From Escherichia phage VEc74: 64,000 bases of DNA. Under the pieces are notes generated by a model, which saw only the letters and a program-made list of their open reading frames with translations, made no database searches and had not been told where the DNA came from. Numbering within the stretch: the stretch's first letter is position 1; every line of letters begins with the position of its first letter. The position numbers were made by a program, and so were the translations under genes. The DNA lies in sequence record MT932213.1, one strand, 5' to 3'. Positions 15,279-34,960 of the stretch are shown here, in pieces.

Positions 15279-15797
15279 TTAATAACCTCGGTCTTGACGT
15301 GCGAAATTTTCAGCATTTTTCAGGTAATAAAGTTTAAAGATTTCTTCAGCCGTAAGACCAAGACCTTGGAACATGTTCAGAACAAAATGGAGAATATCAA
15401 TCATTTCAAATTTAATTTCCAACTGGTCTTGTGGAGACAAATCAGTAATCAAAGTTTCACGGCGTTCACCATGCTGCGACTTCCAAGGTTTCCATACAGC
15501 AGATGCATCTTTTTCGCCGTTGCTCATACCACCAAGAGAAGTCAAAAGTTCGCGGAATTCATCATCAATATAATCTTTCTGATTGCGCAGCCAATCAACA
15601 ACTTCACCTGCAGTAGCCAAATCATCAGGATGACGGTTATATTCAGGTTTATCTTTAGCTAAACGAACCTGCAAAGATTTCTGCATATCAAGCATAACTT
15701 GCAGCGGGTCTTTTTCATCACCGAGAATATCCCAGTATTCATTTTGAGCTTTATCAGCGCCTTCGATCAATTGTGAACATTCATTAAAGTATGCCAT
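15279..15797 (-). CDS. 56: dCTPase/dCDPase gp56 (MazG-like)
   Basis: ORF starting MAYFNE at an internal ATG with an AAGGA RBS; the tracked N-terminal extension is hydrophobic and likely spurious. Confidence 0.7.
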   Translation of the reverse strand: MAYFNECSQLIEGADKAQNEYWDILGDEKDPLQVMLDMQKSLQVRLAKDKPEYNRHPDDLATAGEVVDWLRNQKDYIDDEFRELLTSLGGMSNGEKDASAVWKPWKSQHGERRETLITDLSPQDQLEIKFEMIDILHFVLNMFQGLGLTAEEIFKLYYLKNAENFARQDRGY

Positions 15798-15868
15798 TAT
15801 TTTTCCTTTCAATTCATGGATTAGTAGATTAATTATACAATAAATATATAAAGCAATAAGGAGGACAT

Positions 15869-16069
15869 ATGGTACAAAAATTAATGGCACTTGTTAATGC
15901 CATCAAAGGTAATAAAAAGCGTATAGCTTTTACTATTTCTGCTATGGTAGGAATTTTACTCTGGAACTTTATTTTATCACCTGTTGCAATTGCGCATGGT
16001 ATTAATATTCCAGTAGTTACTCTTGATACATTCGTAGATTTAGCATTTGCTTTAGTTGGGTTAATTTAA
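15869..16069 (+). CDS. small hydrophobic protein encoded on the opposite strand
   Basis: 66-aa ORF with two predicted TM segments, AAGGAGG SD before the ATG, no minus-strand ORF in the 56-61 intergenic interval. Confidence 0.35.
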   Translation: MVQKLMALVNAIKGNKKRIAFTISAMVGILLWNFILSPVAIAHGINIPVVTLDTFVDLAFALVGLI

Positions 16070-17094
16070 ATCTTAGCATATTTAGATAACCGCATTTTAG
16101 CCATCAACCCCTGGGCAATATTATTTTTCATATATTCCATAATTTGTTCAGGGGTTGCACCTTCCTTTCTAATCATATCATTAACATCTTTTGATTTCCA
16201 GGGAGATTTATCCCAAAACATAACCCTTTCTCCTGCATCAACTAATTTAGTCATTCGCTTAATAGTGTCAGGATGACGAGGTTCATTATCTAAAACCCAC
16301 ACTCGTCTATCTTTAAATGGAACAATTTCTAGGTCTAATTGACCACCCGTAATAGCTATACCATTTTCAATAAAAAGTGAATCTATAGGTCCTTCTAGAA
16401 CATATACATCGCCATCTTTAACTCGTTCGACTCCATAGATTTTTGTTGCCTCAGGATAAGCTTTGATGGTGATATATTTTTGAGGAGCATCTTTCTTTAA
16501 TGCACGTCCTTGAAAAGACTCAGCTTTTCCACTAGCATTATAAATTGGAATAACGAGACGAGGCTCAGGTATTTCCTTTTTATATGTTCCCGGTGCTATG
16601 CTATTAACTAATTTAGGCCATTCAGTTGTAAACCAAAGATATTTCCATTTATCCTTTGGAATACAACGAGCTTTTACGTATTTTATAATTGGATGGTCTT
16701 CCGTCAGTTTATCTAATCTAACACATGACGGAAGAGATTTAATTATTTTCTTCTCAGGTTGTTTAGGAAGTTCTTTAGGTTTTTCTACTGGACGACTTTT
16801 ACCTTTTTCTTTTCTTATTTCAAAGATATACTCACGATATAAATCAGGTTCAAACTCCTTTAAATATATTCCGATTGGTGCATGATAGTTACAGTTATAA
16901 CAATGAATATTTCCTTCATTATTATCACCATAATACCATCCACGAGCTTTATTCTGGTCGGTTTTTGAATCTCCACAAACAGGGCATCTAAACCGTAATT
17001 TAAAAGTTGAACTATTATTTACTTGTGTGAATTTAGGTAAATGAGCTAATGCACGATACGCAAACTCATTATCAATCCAAGGTATTGATGACAT
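16066..17094 (-). CDS. 61: DNA primase gp61
   Basis: 342-aa ORF with an N-terminal zinc ribbon (CPVCGDS...HCYNC) and a TOPRIM-like core. Confidence 0.85.
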   Translation of the reverse strand: MSSIPWIDNEFAYRALAHLPKFTQVNNSSTFKLRFRCPVCGDSKTDQNKARGWYYGDNNEGNIHCYNCNYHAPIGIYLKEFEPDLYREYIFEIRKEKGKSRPVEKPKELPKQPEKKIIKSLPSCVRLDKLTEDHPIIKYVKARCIPKDKWKYLWFTTEWPKLVNSIAPGTYKKEIPEPRLVIPIYNASGKAESFQGRALKKDAPQKYITIKAYPEATKIYGVERVKDGDVYVLEGPIDSLFIENGIAITGGQLDLEIVPFKDRRVWVLDNEPRHPDTIKRMTKLVDAGERVMFWDKSPWKSKDVNDMIRKEGATPEQIMEYMKNNIAQGLMAKMRLSKYAKI

Positions 17095-20179: not shown

Positions 20180-20524
20180 TTAAAAGAATTTAAATTTTTT
20201 CTTTGACCTTTTATTAAATGCATCTTGTAGTTGCATTGTAATACATTTTTCTACATGAGGAGCTAACTCAGCTTTTCTTTCTTGGTCAAGAACAGCAAAG
20301 TCCATTACAACCTTTCCATCAACCCAATCCAGTTTAGTTACATACACTATATGTGTAGAACCATCTTCTAGTTTAATGACAATCTCCTGGATAACATTTT
20401 CCATAGCGGATTTAATTATCTTAAGAGACTCATTAAAAAGACGTTCTTTTCTTTCTTCTTCCCCCTCCGAAGAGGGGGATTCATCGATAATTTCTAGATC
20501 TAAATCTAAATCATCTTTATTCAT
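20180..20524 (-). CDS. 40: gp40 (head vertex assembly chaperone)
   Basis: ORF of about 114 aa between uvsX and gene 41; start placed at the ATG overlapping the uvsX stop. Confidence 0.5.
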   Translation of the reverse strand: MNKDDLDLDLEIIDESPSSEGEEERKERLFNESLKIIKSAMENVIQEIVIKLEDGSTHIVYVTKLDWVDGKVVMDFAVLDQERKAELAPHVEKCITMQLQDAFNKRSKKKFKFF

Positions 20525-21698
20525 TAAATTCTTCCATATCACTTAACTGTTCGAGGTCAGTTTCTAAATCAGCTGCTGATTTACTTTTACTTTCTGGAGA
20601 TTTAAATTTTTCAACCTTTGAGTTAATCAATTCATCAACTTCAGCTTCAACAATTTCATTACTATCAATAGCACCTAACTGATAAGCACGTTTAATAGCA
20701 TCTCGGAATGGTTGATGCTTAAATAAAGGCCCCCAGAATGTAGTGCAGTTAGTATCTTTTGCACGCCAAGATTTTTCTTCGCGAATCATCTCGCCGGTTT
20801 CTTCATCAAGAAATTCACGAGCATACCAACCATTCTTAGGTTTTACTACAAATCCTAATTCTAGAGCCATATCTAACAATCCAGAATAAGGATCGATACC
20901 ACCGTCAAATTTAACATCAATAAAGAATTTACTTTTTTCTTTAACTGTACGAGATTTTTCTACATTTAGAACAAATTGATACCCCTGAAGATCAGAACCA
21001 TCTTTAATTTGACGCTTACCGATAATGAATACGGTATCAGCCGAATACATTACGCCTGTACCACCTGTCATCACGGTTTTACTGAACATTTCAATGGTTT
21101 CAATTGTATGGTTAACCGCGACGCACGGAATATTTTTAATGCTAAAATAAGGAGTAACAATACGGAATAATGACTTCAGTGATTTAGCACGAGTCATATC
21201 TGCCACAGATTTTTCATTCAAGGCATCTTCCGTTTCTTTCTTAGAAGCCATATTACCGATTGAGTCGATGAATACAATAACTTTTTCACCGCGCTCAATA
21301 GCTTCAAGCTGATTCACCATATCAATTTTCAGTTGTTCAACTGACTGGATTGGCGTATGAATTACTCGTTCCGGGTCAACTCCCATAGATCGCAAATAAG
21401 CTGGAGTGATACCAAATTCGCTATCATAGAATAGACAAACCGCGTCAGGATATTTGTTCAAATACGCCGCAACCATAGTCAAAGACATATTTGATTTAAA
21501 GTGTTTAGAAGGACCTGCAAAAATGGTTAAACCAGACTGCATACCGCCATCAATCGCACCGGAAATAGCGATATTAAGCATTGGAATTTTAGTACGAATT
21601 ACATCCTTTTCATTAAAGAATTTAGATGTAGTCAGTTCAGCAGTCATTTTAGAAGTGGAAGCTTTAATCAAACGGGATTTTAAATCTGCAATAGACAT
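20517..21698 (-). CDS. uvsX: UvsX recombinase (RecA-like)
   Basis: 393-aa ORF, clearly T4-UvsX-like over the N-terminal region but not identical. Confidence 0.9.
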   Translation of the reverse strand: MSIADLKSRLIKASTSKMTAELTTSKFFNEKDVIRTKIPMLNIAISGAIDGGMQSGLTIFAGPSKHFKSNMSLTMVAAYLNKYPDAVCLFYDSEFGITPAYLRSMGVDPERVIHTPIQSVEQLKIDMVNQLEAIERGEKVIVFIDSIGNMASKKETEDALNEKSVADMTRAKSLKSLFRIVTPYFSIKNIPCVAVNHTIETIEMFSKTVMTGGTGVMYSADTVFIIGKRQIKDGSDLQGYQFVLNVEKSRTVKEKSKFFIDVKFDGGIDPYSGLLDMALELGFVVKPKNGWYAREFLDEETGEMIREEKSWRAKDTNCTTFWGPLFKHQPFRDAIKRAYQLGAIDSNEIVEAEVDELINSKVEKFKSPESKSKSAADLETDLEQLSDMEEFNE

Positions 21699-21775
21699 TC
21701 ATTTTTTCCATAGGCATCATTATATTTTCCTCACTGGTTAAAGATAGAGTAATTATAACACAATAAATTTAGGCA

Positions 21776-22624
21776 TTAATCAACTGCTATTGGATGAATA
21801 GCATTAAACTTATGAAATGCTTCTGATTTTTCTTTACGCGAAACACACATGCGAAGAACCTTTAATGGCTCGTCTTCTTCACCCAACGATTTTCGTTTTT
21901 CAATATTCGATGTTTTCCAACGAGCTTGCTCTGGAAACTCTCTATTGATTTGCTCAAGCGCTCTATTATGTTTAGAATTACTACGAATTGAACTGCACCC
22001 ACCAGGAGCTTGTGCTTTTCCAGATACAACCAGATATTTGAACAAGGCCAAATGCGGATAACCTTGATTAATTAAATTGAGAAATGCATACATATCTTCA
22101 CATAAATCAATTTTTCCATACCCAATTTGTTCTGTCGTAAGTTTTCCGAGGTCATACCATGTATTCGTGAATCCATATGAATTTTCACGATAATTACCCC
22201 AAGATGAAGTAATTTTAAAAATAGGTAGACGAGCATGGCCATGATAATACCCACAATCCATGGCATCTTCAACGTATTGAATCAATTCATAGAACTGTTC
22301 ACGAGTTAATTGATTGACTTTATCTACGCAACGCCGATCATCTCTTTTTCGCATTGAACTCATACGAATAGTAGTATCATCGTCAATCATCCAAATTCGT
22401 TGACCTGCATACATATCAGTAATTGCTTTACGAGTTCCAGCAATTCCGTTTACATCATCAGGAATAGTTATAATTTTAGCTCTAGACCCATAGGCATCAT
22501 AATAAGCTTTTTCTTCATGTTCACGCACTACAATATGCGGTTCATAATCAGTCGGAAACATATCAAGGGCAGAAACTGCCCCGACACGCTGATAACTTGG
22601 AATTACGAATTGAATCATTTCCAC
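21776..22624 (-). CDS. putative DNA (hydroxymethylcytosine) glycosyltransferase at the beta-gt locus
   Basis: 282-aa ORF with a DDD (DxD-like) motif, between uvsX and gene 42 where T4 encodes beta-gt. Confidence 0.4.
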   Translation of the reverse strand: MEMIQFVIPSYQRVGAVSALDMFPTDYEPHIVVREHEEKAYYDAYGSRAKIITIPDDVNGIAGTRKAITDMYAGQRIWMIDDDTTIRMSSMRKRDDRRCVDKVNQLTREQFYELIQYVEDAMDCGYYHGHARLPIFKITSSWGNYRENSYGFTNTWYDLGKLTTEQIGYGKIDLCEDMYAFLNLINQGYPHLALFKYLVVSGKAQAPGGCSSIRSNSKHNRALEQINREFPEQARWKTSNIEKRKSLGEEDEPLKVLRMCVSRKEKSEAFHKFNAIHPIAVD

Positions 22625-23355
22625 TCACCTTTATAGTCTTTTTTCACAATATGAGTTTCGCCAGTATTCCACCAATGATCAACCAAGTAAAAATGACGAG
22701 AATATACATGAAGACTTCCAACATTCCATATAATAGAACCTGCTTTATACTGACGAGTTGAATCGCCTGCATTCAAATCAGATACTAATTTATCTAATAC
22801 GTATTTTTGCCATGCATAATCATTACGGAATCCGAAGACCACGTCATTTGAGCGCATGCTTACTACTGCATTGACTTTCTTATCACGAATCAGGTATTGT
22901 ACTGTATTAGTACACATGAAATCTGACATACCATCTTTATTGTAGTCAAATTGCATGGATGGACGAGTATAAATCATGATACCACGTCGAGAATCAGGAT
23001 TTTGACCAAGTTCAGCTAAACACATATCATACTGAGCATAGTTATCTTCTGACCAGATAGCCCAACCATAATTCGAGTTAATTTCACCTTTAGAAGATGC
23101 TACTTGTTGCCAAATCTTCGGTGTTTCACCCGGAATATCTTTAACGAACAAGCTTTTAGATTTATACCATTCAAGTTCACGCTGAATGTATTCATCATTA
23201 AGAGCGCCAAAAATAAACGGTTCATCTGCTACAAATGATGCGCCAATAATTTCAATAGTTTTAACGCCGGTTTTATCAACTACGAAATCTTTTTCCTTTA
23301 ATGCAAGTCCCAAATGAAGACGGATTTCTTCAACTGTCATAGAGTCACTAATCAT
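22615..23355 (-). CDS. 42: dCMP hydroxymethylase gp42
   Basis: 246-aa thymidylate-synthase-fold ORF; T4 gp42 is 246 aa. Confidence 0.9.
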   Translation of the reverse strand: MISDSMTVEEIRLHLGLALKEKDFVVDKTGVKTIEIIGASFVADEPFIFGALNDEYIQRELEWYKSKSLFVKDIPGETPKIWQQVASSKGEINSNYGWAIWSEDNYAQYDMCLAELGQNPDSRRGIMIYTRPSMQFDYNKDGMSDFMCTNTVQYLIRDKKVNAVVSMRSNDVVFGFRNDYAWQKYVLDKLVSDLNAGDSTRQYKAGSIIWNVGSLHVYSRHFYLVDHWWNTGETHIVKKDYKGEWK

Positions 23356-23362
23356 TTAAACC

Positions 23363-23512
23363 TCAATTGATACATTCATATTTAACTTGTAACAGTAATA
23401 AGCTCCAACCTAAAATAATAGTTGGAATCATAAGAGGAACCGTTACACTATAGTATATACTTATTATAATCATCAAGATTAAAAGCAACACTGCTATAAT
23501 TTTGCTTTTCAT
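23363..23512 (-). CDS. small membrane peptide
   Basis: 49-aa hydrophobic ORF with ATGA overlap to the imm stop; hand-translated. Confidence 0.35.
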   Translation of the reverse strand: MKSKIIAVLLLILMIIISIYYSVTVPLMIPTIILGWSLLLLQVKYECIN

Positions 23513-23760
23513 TCCTTCTCTCTGATGATAATTACTTGATTTGGCTGTGCAGACTTTTTGGTTTCACCCGCAATTGACCAAATAAATGTAATAAACCAAC
23601 CAATAATTGACCAGTTAAACAGTAAAGACGTGAAAAAGATTCCTACTGTCGATTTTGACCCACGCATCAAGGCGATGAACCATGGAAGCATGTATATAAT
23701 AATAGCCAACACGCCTGAAACTAAAACCATAAAAATCGAACCTGCTACTAAAGTTTCCAT
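23509..23760 (-). CDS. imm: immunity (superinfection exclusion) membrane protein Imm
   Basis: 83-aa two-TM ORF between gene 43 and gene 42. Confidence 0.8.
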   Translation of the reverse strand: METLVAGSIFMVLVSGVLAIIIYMLPWFIALMRGSKSTVGIFFTSLLFNWSIIGWFITFIWSIAGETKKSAQPNQVIIIREKE

Positions 23761-23767
23761 CTTTTCC

Positions 23768-24148
23768 TCACTTAGTCAAATTTTTTACGCATGAATTATA
23801 AGAATTCACTACATACTCCATCGGAGCATTTTTACCAGTACGCCATTGGTAATTATTAGCCCAATTAGCCCAAATTTCGGCGCAGTAGTTTTCAATTTTT
23901 TCTTCGCGTGTAATTACATCCGAATTACGATATGCTTGAGCAGATTCATCTGGACGAATAGCTTCGTCAAAATTCGCCTGCATTTGTTCTACTGTTTGCT
24001 TTGGAGCTTCTTTATAACACTTGACATTAGGATTATAAAATTTGCTTGAACAGTTTACAATTTTTCCTACATCAGACTGATTTACTACCGGTCCTTGAGC
24101 TACACAACCAGTAAGACCTAATGCAATAACCAAAATAGCGATTTTCAT
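23768..24148 (-). CDS. predicted lipoprotein
   Basis: signal peptide with lipobox (LTGC); start taken at the ATG, the tracked start is a TTG. Confidence 0.5.
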   Translation of the reverse strand: MKIAILVIALGLTGCVAQGPVVNQSDVGKIVNCSSKFYNPNVKCYKEAPKQTVEQMQANFDEAIRPDESAQAYRNSDVITREEKIENYCAEIWANWANNYQWRTGKNAPMEYVVNSYNSCVKNLTK

Positions 24149-33741: not shown

Positions 33742-33759
33742 AAAGGGCCGAAGCCCTTT
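33742..33759 (-). terminator. GC hairpin (GGGC-UUCG-GCCC) overlapping the alpha-gt stop
   Basis: inverted repeat followed by UUUAGCUUUAUA. Confidence 0.45.
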
Positions 33760-34960
33760 ATTTTGTAATAATGTCAAACTGCTCTTTAAAGCAGAAGCTT
33801 GAATCTTGATGCTGATACAAAAATTCATAAGCTTTTTCGCGTTCACGGTCATAAAGAGCTCGGTCAGATGACAGTTCTTTAATACGTTCAAATGTTGATT
33901 CCATGTCATTTTCATCAAACCAAACGATACCGCTATCGTGCGAAATTAATGGAGTATTATCAACACGGAATTTTAAATTTTCGCCAGTAGATTTCCAAAA
34001 TACTGGAATTGTTCCACATGCACCAAGCTCGAGATGAGTATATTCTAAAGAACGCTGTAGATATTTTTTATCTAATTTACTCAGCTGATAACCAAATCCG
34101 GATTTACTCATGCGTTCAAGCATTTCGCTATTTACATAACGGTCGAGAATTTGCGTCGGCAAATTAGGAGCAATTTTAATTTGGTCTACTTGATGAAGAC
34201 GATAATACTCGTATGGAATTCCTTTTTCTTTAATAGGAATGAACGCTGGAGAACGTTCCAGACCTTCCATAATAGTACTTAGTCCTGCAGGTTTAAGATG
34301 TTTTTCGTGAAAATCAAACATCTGATAAAAGCCTTTCCATGTAGTAGTACGACCAATCCAACGATTGATATTCATGTTAATTTCAGAAACATCTTTCCAG
34401 TAGGTTGATCGAACCTTCGCAATATCCATGGGAGGCTGAAAGTTATATACGGTCGGTGCTTCTTCAATATCATCAAATAGAGAAACAGTTTCCGGATACC
34501 ATTCTTTCATCAGAACTTTATTAAAATCACCATTATCAGAATGGCTAAAAATAACATCAGCCCGACGAACAGTTTCTTCTAATCCCAAATTTCGACGCAA
34601 AGAAAGAGAAGAATGGTCATGCTGATAAACTACAACACGAACCGAAGGTTTAATGTTATCAATAATTTTTTTATAGTTATTAATGGTGTCTTCTTCAACT
34701 GAAGTAGCAGGAACTGAATTGATAACTAGAATATCACAATCATTTACCAGCTTAAGCGTTTTATCGTATTCTTTTGCCAATAAAACCGGAATTGAAAATG
34801 ATTTATAATCATGCGCGCAATTACGAGTAAATGATTTATCTTTAGCATAAACCAAAGTTACTTCATGACCATTTTTAATAAACCAATCACGCTGCTCAAG
34901 AGAAAATTTAGTTACACCGCAACCTTCAAGACCTCGAGCCATAAAAATGCATACTTTCAT
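33758..34960 (-). CDS. agt: DNA alpha-glucosyltransferase
   Basis: 400-aa ORF; length and position (between 47 and 55) match T4 alpha-gt. Confidence 0.8.
   Translation of the reverse strand: MKVCIFMARGLEGCGVTKFSLEQRDWFIKNGHEVTLVYAKDKSFTRNCAHDYKSFSIPVLLAKEYDKTLKLVNDCDILVINSVPATSVEEDTINNYKKIIDNIKPSVRVVVYQHDHSSLSLRRNLGLEETVRRADVIFSHSDNGDFNKVLMKEWYPETVSLFDDIEEAPTVYNFQPPMDIAKVRSTYWKDVSEINMNINRWIGRTTTWKGFYQMFDFHEKHLKPAGLSTIMEGLERSPAFIPIKEKGIPYEYYRLHQVDQIKIAPNLPTQILDRYVNSEMLERMSKSGFGYQLSKLDKKYLQRSLEYTHLELGACGTIPVFWKSTGENLKFRVDNTPLISHDSGIVWFDENDMESTFERIKELSSDRALYDREREKAYEFLYQHQDSSFCFKEQFDIITK

What the first reader, a model, noticed from the sequence alone, without database searches (positions are those of the whole stretch)
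21776..22624. Non-canonical glycosyltransferase at the beta-glucosyltransferase locus, with alpha-gt present
Between uvsX and gene 42, where T4 encodes the 351-aa beta-gt, this phage has a 282-aa ORF with a DDD (DxD-like) motif and no obvious similarity in length to T4 beta-gt. A canonical-size alpha-gt (400 aa) is present at 33758-34960. The hmC-DNA sugar pattern may therefore differ from T4, for example a T2/T6-like second glucosylation or another sugar.
Basis: partly seen in the sequence, partly recalled or inferred. Interest (0 to 1): 0.5.

Follow-up and report, generated by a model that had tools for sequence, protein, structure and literature searches.

The report
T2/T6-type second glucosyltransferase for phage DNA
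The gene is the well-known T2/T6-type "beta-alpha" glucosyltransferase, which adds a second glucose to glucosylated hydroxymethylcytosine in phage DNA; it is the usual arrangement in T4-like coliphages, so the finding is correct but ordinary.

Summary
The ORF is real. It lies on the minus strand between uvsX (20517-21698) and gene 42 (22615-23355). Its true start is most likely the ATG at 22618, which overlaps the gene 42 stop as ATGA and gives 280 aa, not the GTG at 22624.

It is the beta-glucosyl-HMC-alpha-glucosyltransferase (ba-gt, ggt, "TAGT") of T2/T6-type Tequatrovirus phages:
- The protein is 100% identical to the annotated ba-gt of phage Bas39 and 99% identical to those of T2 and T6.
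- It matches PHROG 842 at E=2e-89 and Pfam TAGT PF20691 above the gathering score.
- The gene is present at 90-99% nucleotide identity in 474 deposited phage genomes.
- It is unrelated to T4 beta-gt by BLASTP, and no beta-gt homologue was found in the window.
- An AlphaFold model resembles GT-A (GT2-like) enzymes, whereas published work classes T4 beta-gt as GT-B.

A canonical alpha-gt (91% identical to T4's) is at 33758-34960. Published T6 deletions of this gene convert gentiobiosyl-hmC DNA to alpha-glucosyl-hmC DNA. LC-MS of phage QOTSP, whose enzyme differs by one residue, shows about two-thirds gentiobiosyl-hmC and no beta-glucosyl-hmC.

"Non-canonical" is not, because T4's alpha-gt plus beta-gt pair is the rare case. 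The finding is already known and of low interest.

The parts
21776..22618 (-). ba-gt (ggt/TAGT): beta-glucosyl-HMC-alpha-glucosyltransferase, 280 aa from the ATG at 22618. The DDD (DxD) motif is at residues 79-81.
   Evidence: PHROG 842 at E=2e-89; Pfam TAGT 38.9 bits against a 27.5-bit cut-off; 100% identical to Bas39 ba-gt; 99% identical to T2 and T6.
22615..23355 (-). Gene 42, dCMP hydroxymethylase, which makes the hmC precursor. Its TGA stop overlaps the ba-gt ATG.
   Evidence: Pfam Thymidylat_synt; annotated dCMP hydroxymethylase in matching records.
33758..34960 (-). alpha-gt, DNA alpha-glucosyltransferase (400 aa). It makes alpha-glucosyl-hmC, the acceptor for ba-gt.
   Evidence: 91% identical to T4 alpha-gt; Pfam AGT E=5e-236.
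15279..15797 (-). Gene 56-type dCTPase/dUTPase (172 aa from the ATG at 15797). It belongs to the pathway that excludes unmodified C from phage DNA.
   Evidence: PHROG 173 NTP pyrophosphohydrolase E=3e-46; same position as the T2/T6 dCTPase upstream of the primase gene.
20517..21698 (-). uvsX recombinase. This is the downstream landmark gene and is not part of the modification pathway.

Best explanation
The ORF encodes the T2/T6-type beta-glucosyl-HMC-alpha-glucosyltransferase (ba-gt, also called ggt or TAGT). The proposed pathway runs as follows. Gene 42 makes hm-dCMP, and hmC is incorporated into DNA at replication. Alpha-gt (33758-34960) then transfers glucose from UDP-glucose in alpha linkage to about three quarters of the hmC residues. 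Finally this GT-A-fold, DxD-motif enzyme transfers a second glucose from UDP-glucose onto the first one in beta-1,6 linkage, giving gentiobiosyl-hmC. An inverting mechanism is assumed because its nearest structural relatives are GT2-like enzymes. The phage DNA is thus predicted to carry hmC, alpha-glucosyl-hmC and gentiobiosyl-hmC but no beta-glucosyl-hmC. The second sugar hides alpha-glucosyl-hmC from host defences that read it, for example the Brig1 glycosylase and the BapA deglucosylase. Shown here: gene identity, synteny, family membership, fold class and absence of beta-gt from this window. Taken from the literature: the chemistry and the defence-evasion role. Inferred: that this particular phage has a T6-like high proportion of diglucosylation.
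Confidence: 0.95

Rival explanations
1. The enzyme replaces T4 beta-gt. It would glucosylate naked hmC directly, in beta linkage, at the sites alpha-gt leaves free, so the DNA would be fully monoglucosylated as in T4.
For: It occupies the same locus as T4 beta-gt. Some deposited records label it 'b-gt' or 'putative beta-glucosyltransferase'.
Against: No sequence similarity to T4 beta-gt and no Pfam PF09198 hit. The fold class is GT-A here, while T4 beta-gt is GT-B according to PMC13216743. T2, T6 and Durham phages with this enzyme retain about 25-33% naked hmC and have no detectable beta-glucosyl-hmC. T6 delta-ba-gt DNA gains alpha-glucosyl-hmC rather than naked hmC.
Confidence: 0.02
2. The enzyme transfers a different sugar or builds a different linkage, such as arabinose or another hexose. 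This would give a modification not seen in T2 or T6.
For: The TAGT family is diverse and includes members in phages that lack alpha-gt and beta-gt (PMC13216743). Homologues at 28-66% identity exist, and their products are unknown.
Against: The window protein is 99-100% identical to enzymes from phages with chemically defined gentiobiosyl-hmC. No other sugar-nucleotide biosynthesis or glycosyltransferase gene was seen near it.
Confidence: 0.02
3. The gene is present but inactive or weakly active in this phage, as in T2 with about 5% gentiobiosyl. The DNA would then be essentially alpha-glucosyl-hmC plus naked hmC.
For: Near-identical enzymes give very different diglucosylation levels in T2 and T6. 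Deposited T6 records carry an amber codon (MH550421) or a DDD-to-DD deletion (AP018814) in this gene, so lesions do occur.
Against: The window ORF is intact, with DDD and all family-invariant residues present, including R11 which T2 has lost. It is 100% identical in protein to Bas39. It differs by one residue from QOTSP, whose DNA is about two-thirds gentiobiosyl-hmC.
Confidence: 0.1

Closest known systems
Beta-glucosyl-HMC-alpha-glucosyltransferase (ba-gt / ggt) of phages T2 and T6 and many Tequatrovirus isolates (PHROG 842)
   Same: 99-100% protein identity, the same 280-aa length, the same locus between uvsX and gene 42, the same ATGA overlap with gene 42, and the same partner alpha-gt.
   Different: Only a few substitutions. 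Against T2: R11 instead of H, and P251 instead of S. Against T6: Y40, D55 and R106 instead of N, G and H. There are 13-27 nucleotide differences in total, most of them silent.
Pfam TAGT (TET-associated glycosyltransferase, PF20691), GT-A fold, GT2-like
   Different: It is a divergent member (E=1e-9 only). It is associated with a gene-42 dCMP hydroxymethylase pathway rather than a TET/JBP dioxygenase. Its acceptor is a sugar on DNA (alpha-glucosyl-hmC) rather than the hydroxymethyl base itself, according to the literature.
T4 beta-glucosyltransferase (beta-gt, Pfam PF09198, GT-B fold)
   Same: Same genomic slot next to gene 42. Both presumably use UDP-glucose and form a beta linkage on modified phage DNA.
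   Different: No detectable sequence similarity. The length differs, 351 aa against 280 aa. The fold class differs: GT-A here, GT-B for T4 beta-gt according to PMC13216743. The acceptor differs: hmC for T4 beta-gt, alpha-glucosyl-hmC here. T4 also has the segA homing endonuclease between uvsX and beta-gt, which is absent here.

Membership tests
T2/T6 beta-glucosyl-HMC-alpha-glucosyltransferase (ba-gt, PHROG 842) | Full-length, high-identity sequence match to the T2/T6 enzymes | tested here: met
   99% identity to T2 and T6, 100% to Bas39 ba-gt; PHROG 842 E=2.2e-89 covering 2-277 of the 282-aa query and 3-269 of the 270-position profile.
T2/T6 beta-glucosyl-HMC-alpha-glucosyltransferase (ba-gt, PHROG 842) | Located between uvsX and gene 42, in a genome that also encodes alpha-gt and dCMP hydroxymethylase | tested here: met
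T2/T6 beta-glucosyl-HMC-alpha-glucosyltransferase (ba-gt, PHROG 842) | Transfers glucose from UDP-glucose in beta-1,6 linkage onto alpha-glucosyl-hmC in DNA, giving gentiobiosyl-hmC | not testable with these tools
   Supported only by the literature on near-identical enzymes: T6 deletion mutants (PMC11078745; bioRxiv 10.64898/2026.02.25.707755) and LC-MS of QOTSP and relatives (PMC13390438).
Pfam TAGT PF20691 (GT-A superfamily) | Profile score above the curated gathering threshold | tested here: met
   38.9 bits against 27.5; profile positions 2-205 of 205. Homologues P0001-P0011 also carry PF20691.
Pfam TAGT PF20691 (GT-A superfamily) | GT-A nucleotide-diphospho-sugar transferase fold with a DxD metal/nucleotide-sugar motif | tested here: met
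T4 beta-glucosyltransferase (PF09198, GT-B) | Sequence homology to T4 beta-gt | tested here: not met
   BLASTP best E=2.2 over 8 residues. No PF09198 hit for the window protein, while T4 beta-gt scores E=9e-98. tblastn of T4 beta-gt against the whole window gives E>1.
T4 beta-glucosyltransferase (PF09198, GT-B) | GT-B two-Rossmann-domain fold | tested here: not met

The most novel reading that the evidence does not exclude
The most novel reading still open concerns the enzyme family rather than this gene. The large, long-known difference in diglucosylation between T2 (about 5%) and T6-like phages (about 70%) might be caused by T2's R11H substitution. R11 is otherwise invariant and sits in the N-terminal IPSYQR motif of ba-gt. 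On this reading the window phage, which keeps R11, would have T6-like heavily gentiobiosylated DNA. Alternatively, this phage's enzyme could have an undetected extra acceptor or sugar specificity.
Probability: 0.15. Interest if true: 0.3.

Novelty: already known. Interest (0 to 1): 0.07.

Why it matters
For annotation, it shows that this phage is a T2/T6-type Tequatrovirus, not a T4-type one, with respect to DNA hypermodification. It is predicted to carry gentiobiosyl-hmC, alpha-glucosyl-hmC and about a quarter to a third naked hmC, and no beta-glucosyl-hmC. That pattern predicts its behaviour towards host defences described in the literature. These include partial shielding from the alpha-glucosyl-hmC glycosylase Brig1 and from the deglucosylase BapA, sensitivity to the hmC glycosylase Brig3, and sensitivity to GmrSD/BrxU-type type IV enzymes. 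It reveals no new biology: the enzyme, its locus and its product have been known since the 1960s (chemistry) and 1990s (gene).

Tried and rejected
- T4 beta-gt homology was rejected. BLASTP gave no hit, Pfam gave no PF09198 match, and tblastn of T4 beta-gt over the whole window found nothing.
- Sequence search of the PDB found no solved relative, only chance hits at E>1. Fold assignment therefore needed a model.
- The promoter and terminator scan of 21500-23900 gave counts at the level of shuffled sequence, so no regulatory claim is made from it. The TGTTATAAT just downstream of the ba-gt stop looks by eye like an extended -10 for uvsX but was not tested.
- The first DNA alignment meant to check the DDD deletion used wrong coordinates and was redone by script.
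- I did not fetch the Durham phages EL, BGP and Geo (intermediate 1:2:2 sugar ratio) to correlate enzyme variants with sugar ratios. Their gene coordinates were unknown and would have cost many calls.

Full report
**Observation**

The ORF listing shows a 282-aa ORF (GTG start) at 21776..22624 on the minus strand. It is flanked downstream by a 393-aa ORF at 20517..21698 and upstream by a 246-aa ORF at 22615..23355. The downstream ORF matches UvsX-like recombinase families. The upstream ORF matches the thymidylate-synthase family and is annotated dCMP hydroxymethylase (gene 42) in matching phage records.

The sequence around the start reads ...AAAGGTGAGTGGAAATGATTCAATTC.... The gene 42 reading frame ends GGT GAG TGG AAA TGA, and the ATG at 22618 overlaps that stop as ATGA, preceded by a GGTGAG Shine-Dalgarno-like element. 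T2 and Bas39 annotate this ATG as the start, giving 843 nt and 280 aa.

The DDD motif is there as WMIDDDTT. The 400-aa ORF at 33758..34960 is 91% identical to T4 alpha-gt and matches Pfam AGT at E=5e-236. GC content across the gene (0.34-0.38) is like that of its neighbours.

**Identity**

- The protein hits PHROG 842, 'beta-glucosyl-HMC-alpha-glucosyltransferase', at E=2.2e-89 over its whole length.
- It hits Pfam PF20691, TET-associated glycosyltransferase (TAGT), at 38.9 bits against a gathering score of 27.5.
- Megablast of the gene against 50,697 phage records finds it full length at 90-99% identity in 474 records. These are almost all Escherichia, Shigella, Yersinia and Salmonella T4-like phages, and the gene is commonly annotated beta-alpha-glucosyltransferase.
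- A 24-kb stretch of the window is 96.5-97.1% identical to Tequatrovirus genomes.
- At protein level the window enzyme is identical to that of Bas39 (FriedrichMiescher).
- It differs from T2 by R11H and P251S, from T6 by Y40N, D55G and R106H, and from QOTSP by D24N.
- T2 and T6 have the same uvsX / ba-gt / 42 / imm order.
- T4 instead has uvsX / segA / beta-gt / 42.

**Not a T4 beta-gt**

BLASTP against T4 beta-gt gives only 8-residue chance matches (E=2.2). The window protein has no PF09198 hit, while T4 beta-gt scores E=9e-98. tblastn of T4 beta-gt against the whole 64-kb window finds nothing (E>1), whereas alpha-gt and the TAGT each occur once.

**Fold and mechanism**

No solved structure is detectable by sequence. 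A search of 5.8 billion proteins returned 11 relatives, down to 28% identity by BLASTP, nearly all carrying PF20691. In the 9-sequence alignment the following are invariant: the N-terminal IPSY-R motif, GI..TR, M-DDD, and a C-terminal GG-S..R.

- mannosylglycerate synthase and hyaluronan synthases
- sugar-nucleotidyltransferases of the same fold class, including the top hit

**Function from the literature**

- T2 and T6 DNA carry alpha-glucosyl-hmC and beta-1,6-glucosyl-alpha-glucosyl-hmC (gentiobiosyl-hmC). The figures are T2 about 70% and 5%, T6 about 3% and 72%, with about 25% naked hmC in both (classical references are listed).
- Deleting this gene in T6 gives DNA with only alpha-glucosyl-hmC. 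That DNA is more sensitive to the Brig1 glycosylase in vivo and in vitro (PMC11078745), and BapA releases glucose from it (bioRxiv 10.64898/2026.02.25.707755).
- LC-MS of ten Durham Tequatrovirus phages found hmC, alpha-glucosyl-hmC and gentiobiosyl-hmC but no beta-glucosyl-hmC. These phages encode alpha-GT plus a TAGT 'at the position syntenic with' T4 beta-GT.
- QOTSP and six others have about one-third hmC and two-thirds gentiobiosyl-hmC (PMC13390438).
- QOTSP's gene is 97.9% identical in nucleotides to the window's, and its protein differs by one residue.

**Prevalence**

According to PMC13216743, only 6 of 753 GT-encoding phage genomes combine alpha-GT with beta-GT, namely T4 and close relatives. 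The vast majority pair alpha-GT or beta-GT with a TAGT. The window's arrangement is therefore the norm and T4 is the exception, so 'non-canonical' applies only from a T4-centric view.

**Verdict**

The feature is an already known, experimentally characterised gene present in hundreds of sequenced phages. What cannot be read from the sequence is the exact fraction of diglucosylated hmC in this phage. From the single-residue difference to QOTSP and the presence of R11, I infer a T6-like high fraction, but this is untested.

**Side observations**

1. All three T2 records carry R11H at a residue that is invariant in the family alignment. This could be the cause of T2's low gentiobiosylation.
2. 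The two T6 genome records each carry a different apparent lesion. MH550421 has CAG to TAG at codon 10, so the CDS is annotated from an internal Met as 261 aa. AP018814 has lost one GAT of GATGATGAT, giving DDD to DD.
3. The window's alpha-gt has an A7 run at nt 289-295. This is the position of the poly-A 'contingency locus' reported for T2 agt (bioRxiv 10.1101/2025.10.21.683753).

Noticed in passing
L003:7283-8125, L006:3295-4137, L007:3295-4137 (T2 records), compared with window 21776-22618: All three T2 records carry R11H (plus P251S) in ba-gt. R11 lies in the N-terminal IPSYQR motif and is invariant in the 9-sequence family alignment down to about 30% identity. This substitution could make the T2 enzyme a hypomorph and explain the classical 5% (T2) against 72% (T6) gentiobiosyl-hmC difference. 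The window has R11.
   Followed up: partly
L001:4138-4983 (T6 MH550421) and L004:7135-7974 (T6 AP018814): The two deposited T6 genomes each show a different apparent lesion in ba-gt. MH550421 has an amber codon (CAG to TAG) at codon 10, so its CDS is annotated from an internal Met (261 aa, lacking the first beta-strand). AP018814 has lost one GAT from the GATGATGAT repeat, turning the DDD motif into DD. These may be stock mutations or sequencing errors. The window gene reads GAC GAT GAT and is intact.
   Followed up: partly
window 33758-34960 (-), nt 289-295 and 892-897 of the alpha-gt gene: The alpha-gt gene contains an A7 run at nt 289-295 and an A6 run at nt 892-897. The first coincides with the poly-A tract at bases 288-296 reported as a reversible frameshift 'contingency locus' in T2 agt (bioRxiv 10.1101/2025.10.21.683753).
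   Followed up: no
window 23363-23512 (-): A 49-aa, strongly hydrophobic ORF lies between gene 42 and imm and matches PHROG 3610 (unknown function, E=1e-25). It is annotated as hypothetical in Bas39 and has no annotated counterpart at this position in the T4 record.
   Followed up: no
window 21699-21775 compared with L002:5571-6236 (T4): T4 carries the GIY-YIG homing endonuclease gene segA between uvsX and beta-gt. The window, like T2 and T6, has only a 77-nt spacer there. The spacer contains TGTTATAAT, which looks by eye like an extended -10 upstream of uvsX.
   Followed up: no
window 15279-16065 compared with L003:203-982 (T2): T2 has a DNA methylase (dam-like) gene between the dCTPase and primase genes. 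The window, like T6, appears to lack it, because dCTPase (15279-15797) is followed closely by the primase ORF (16066-17094). The Durham study notes that presence or absence of a Dam-like gene separates phage groups with different glucosyl to gentiobiosyl ratios.
   Followed up: no
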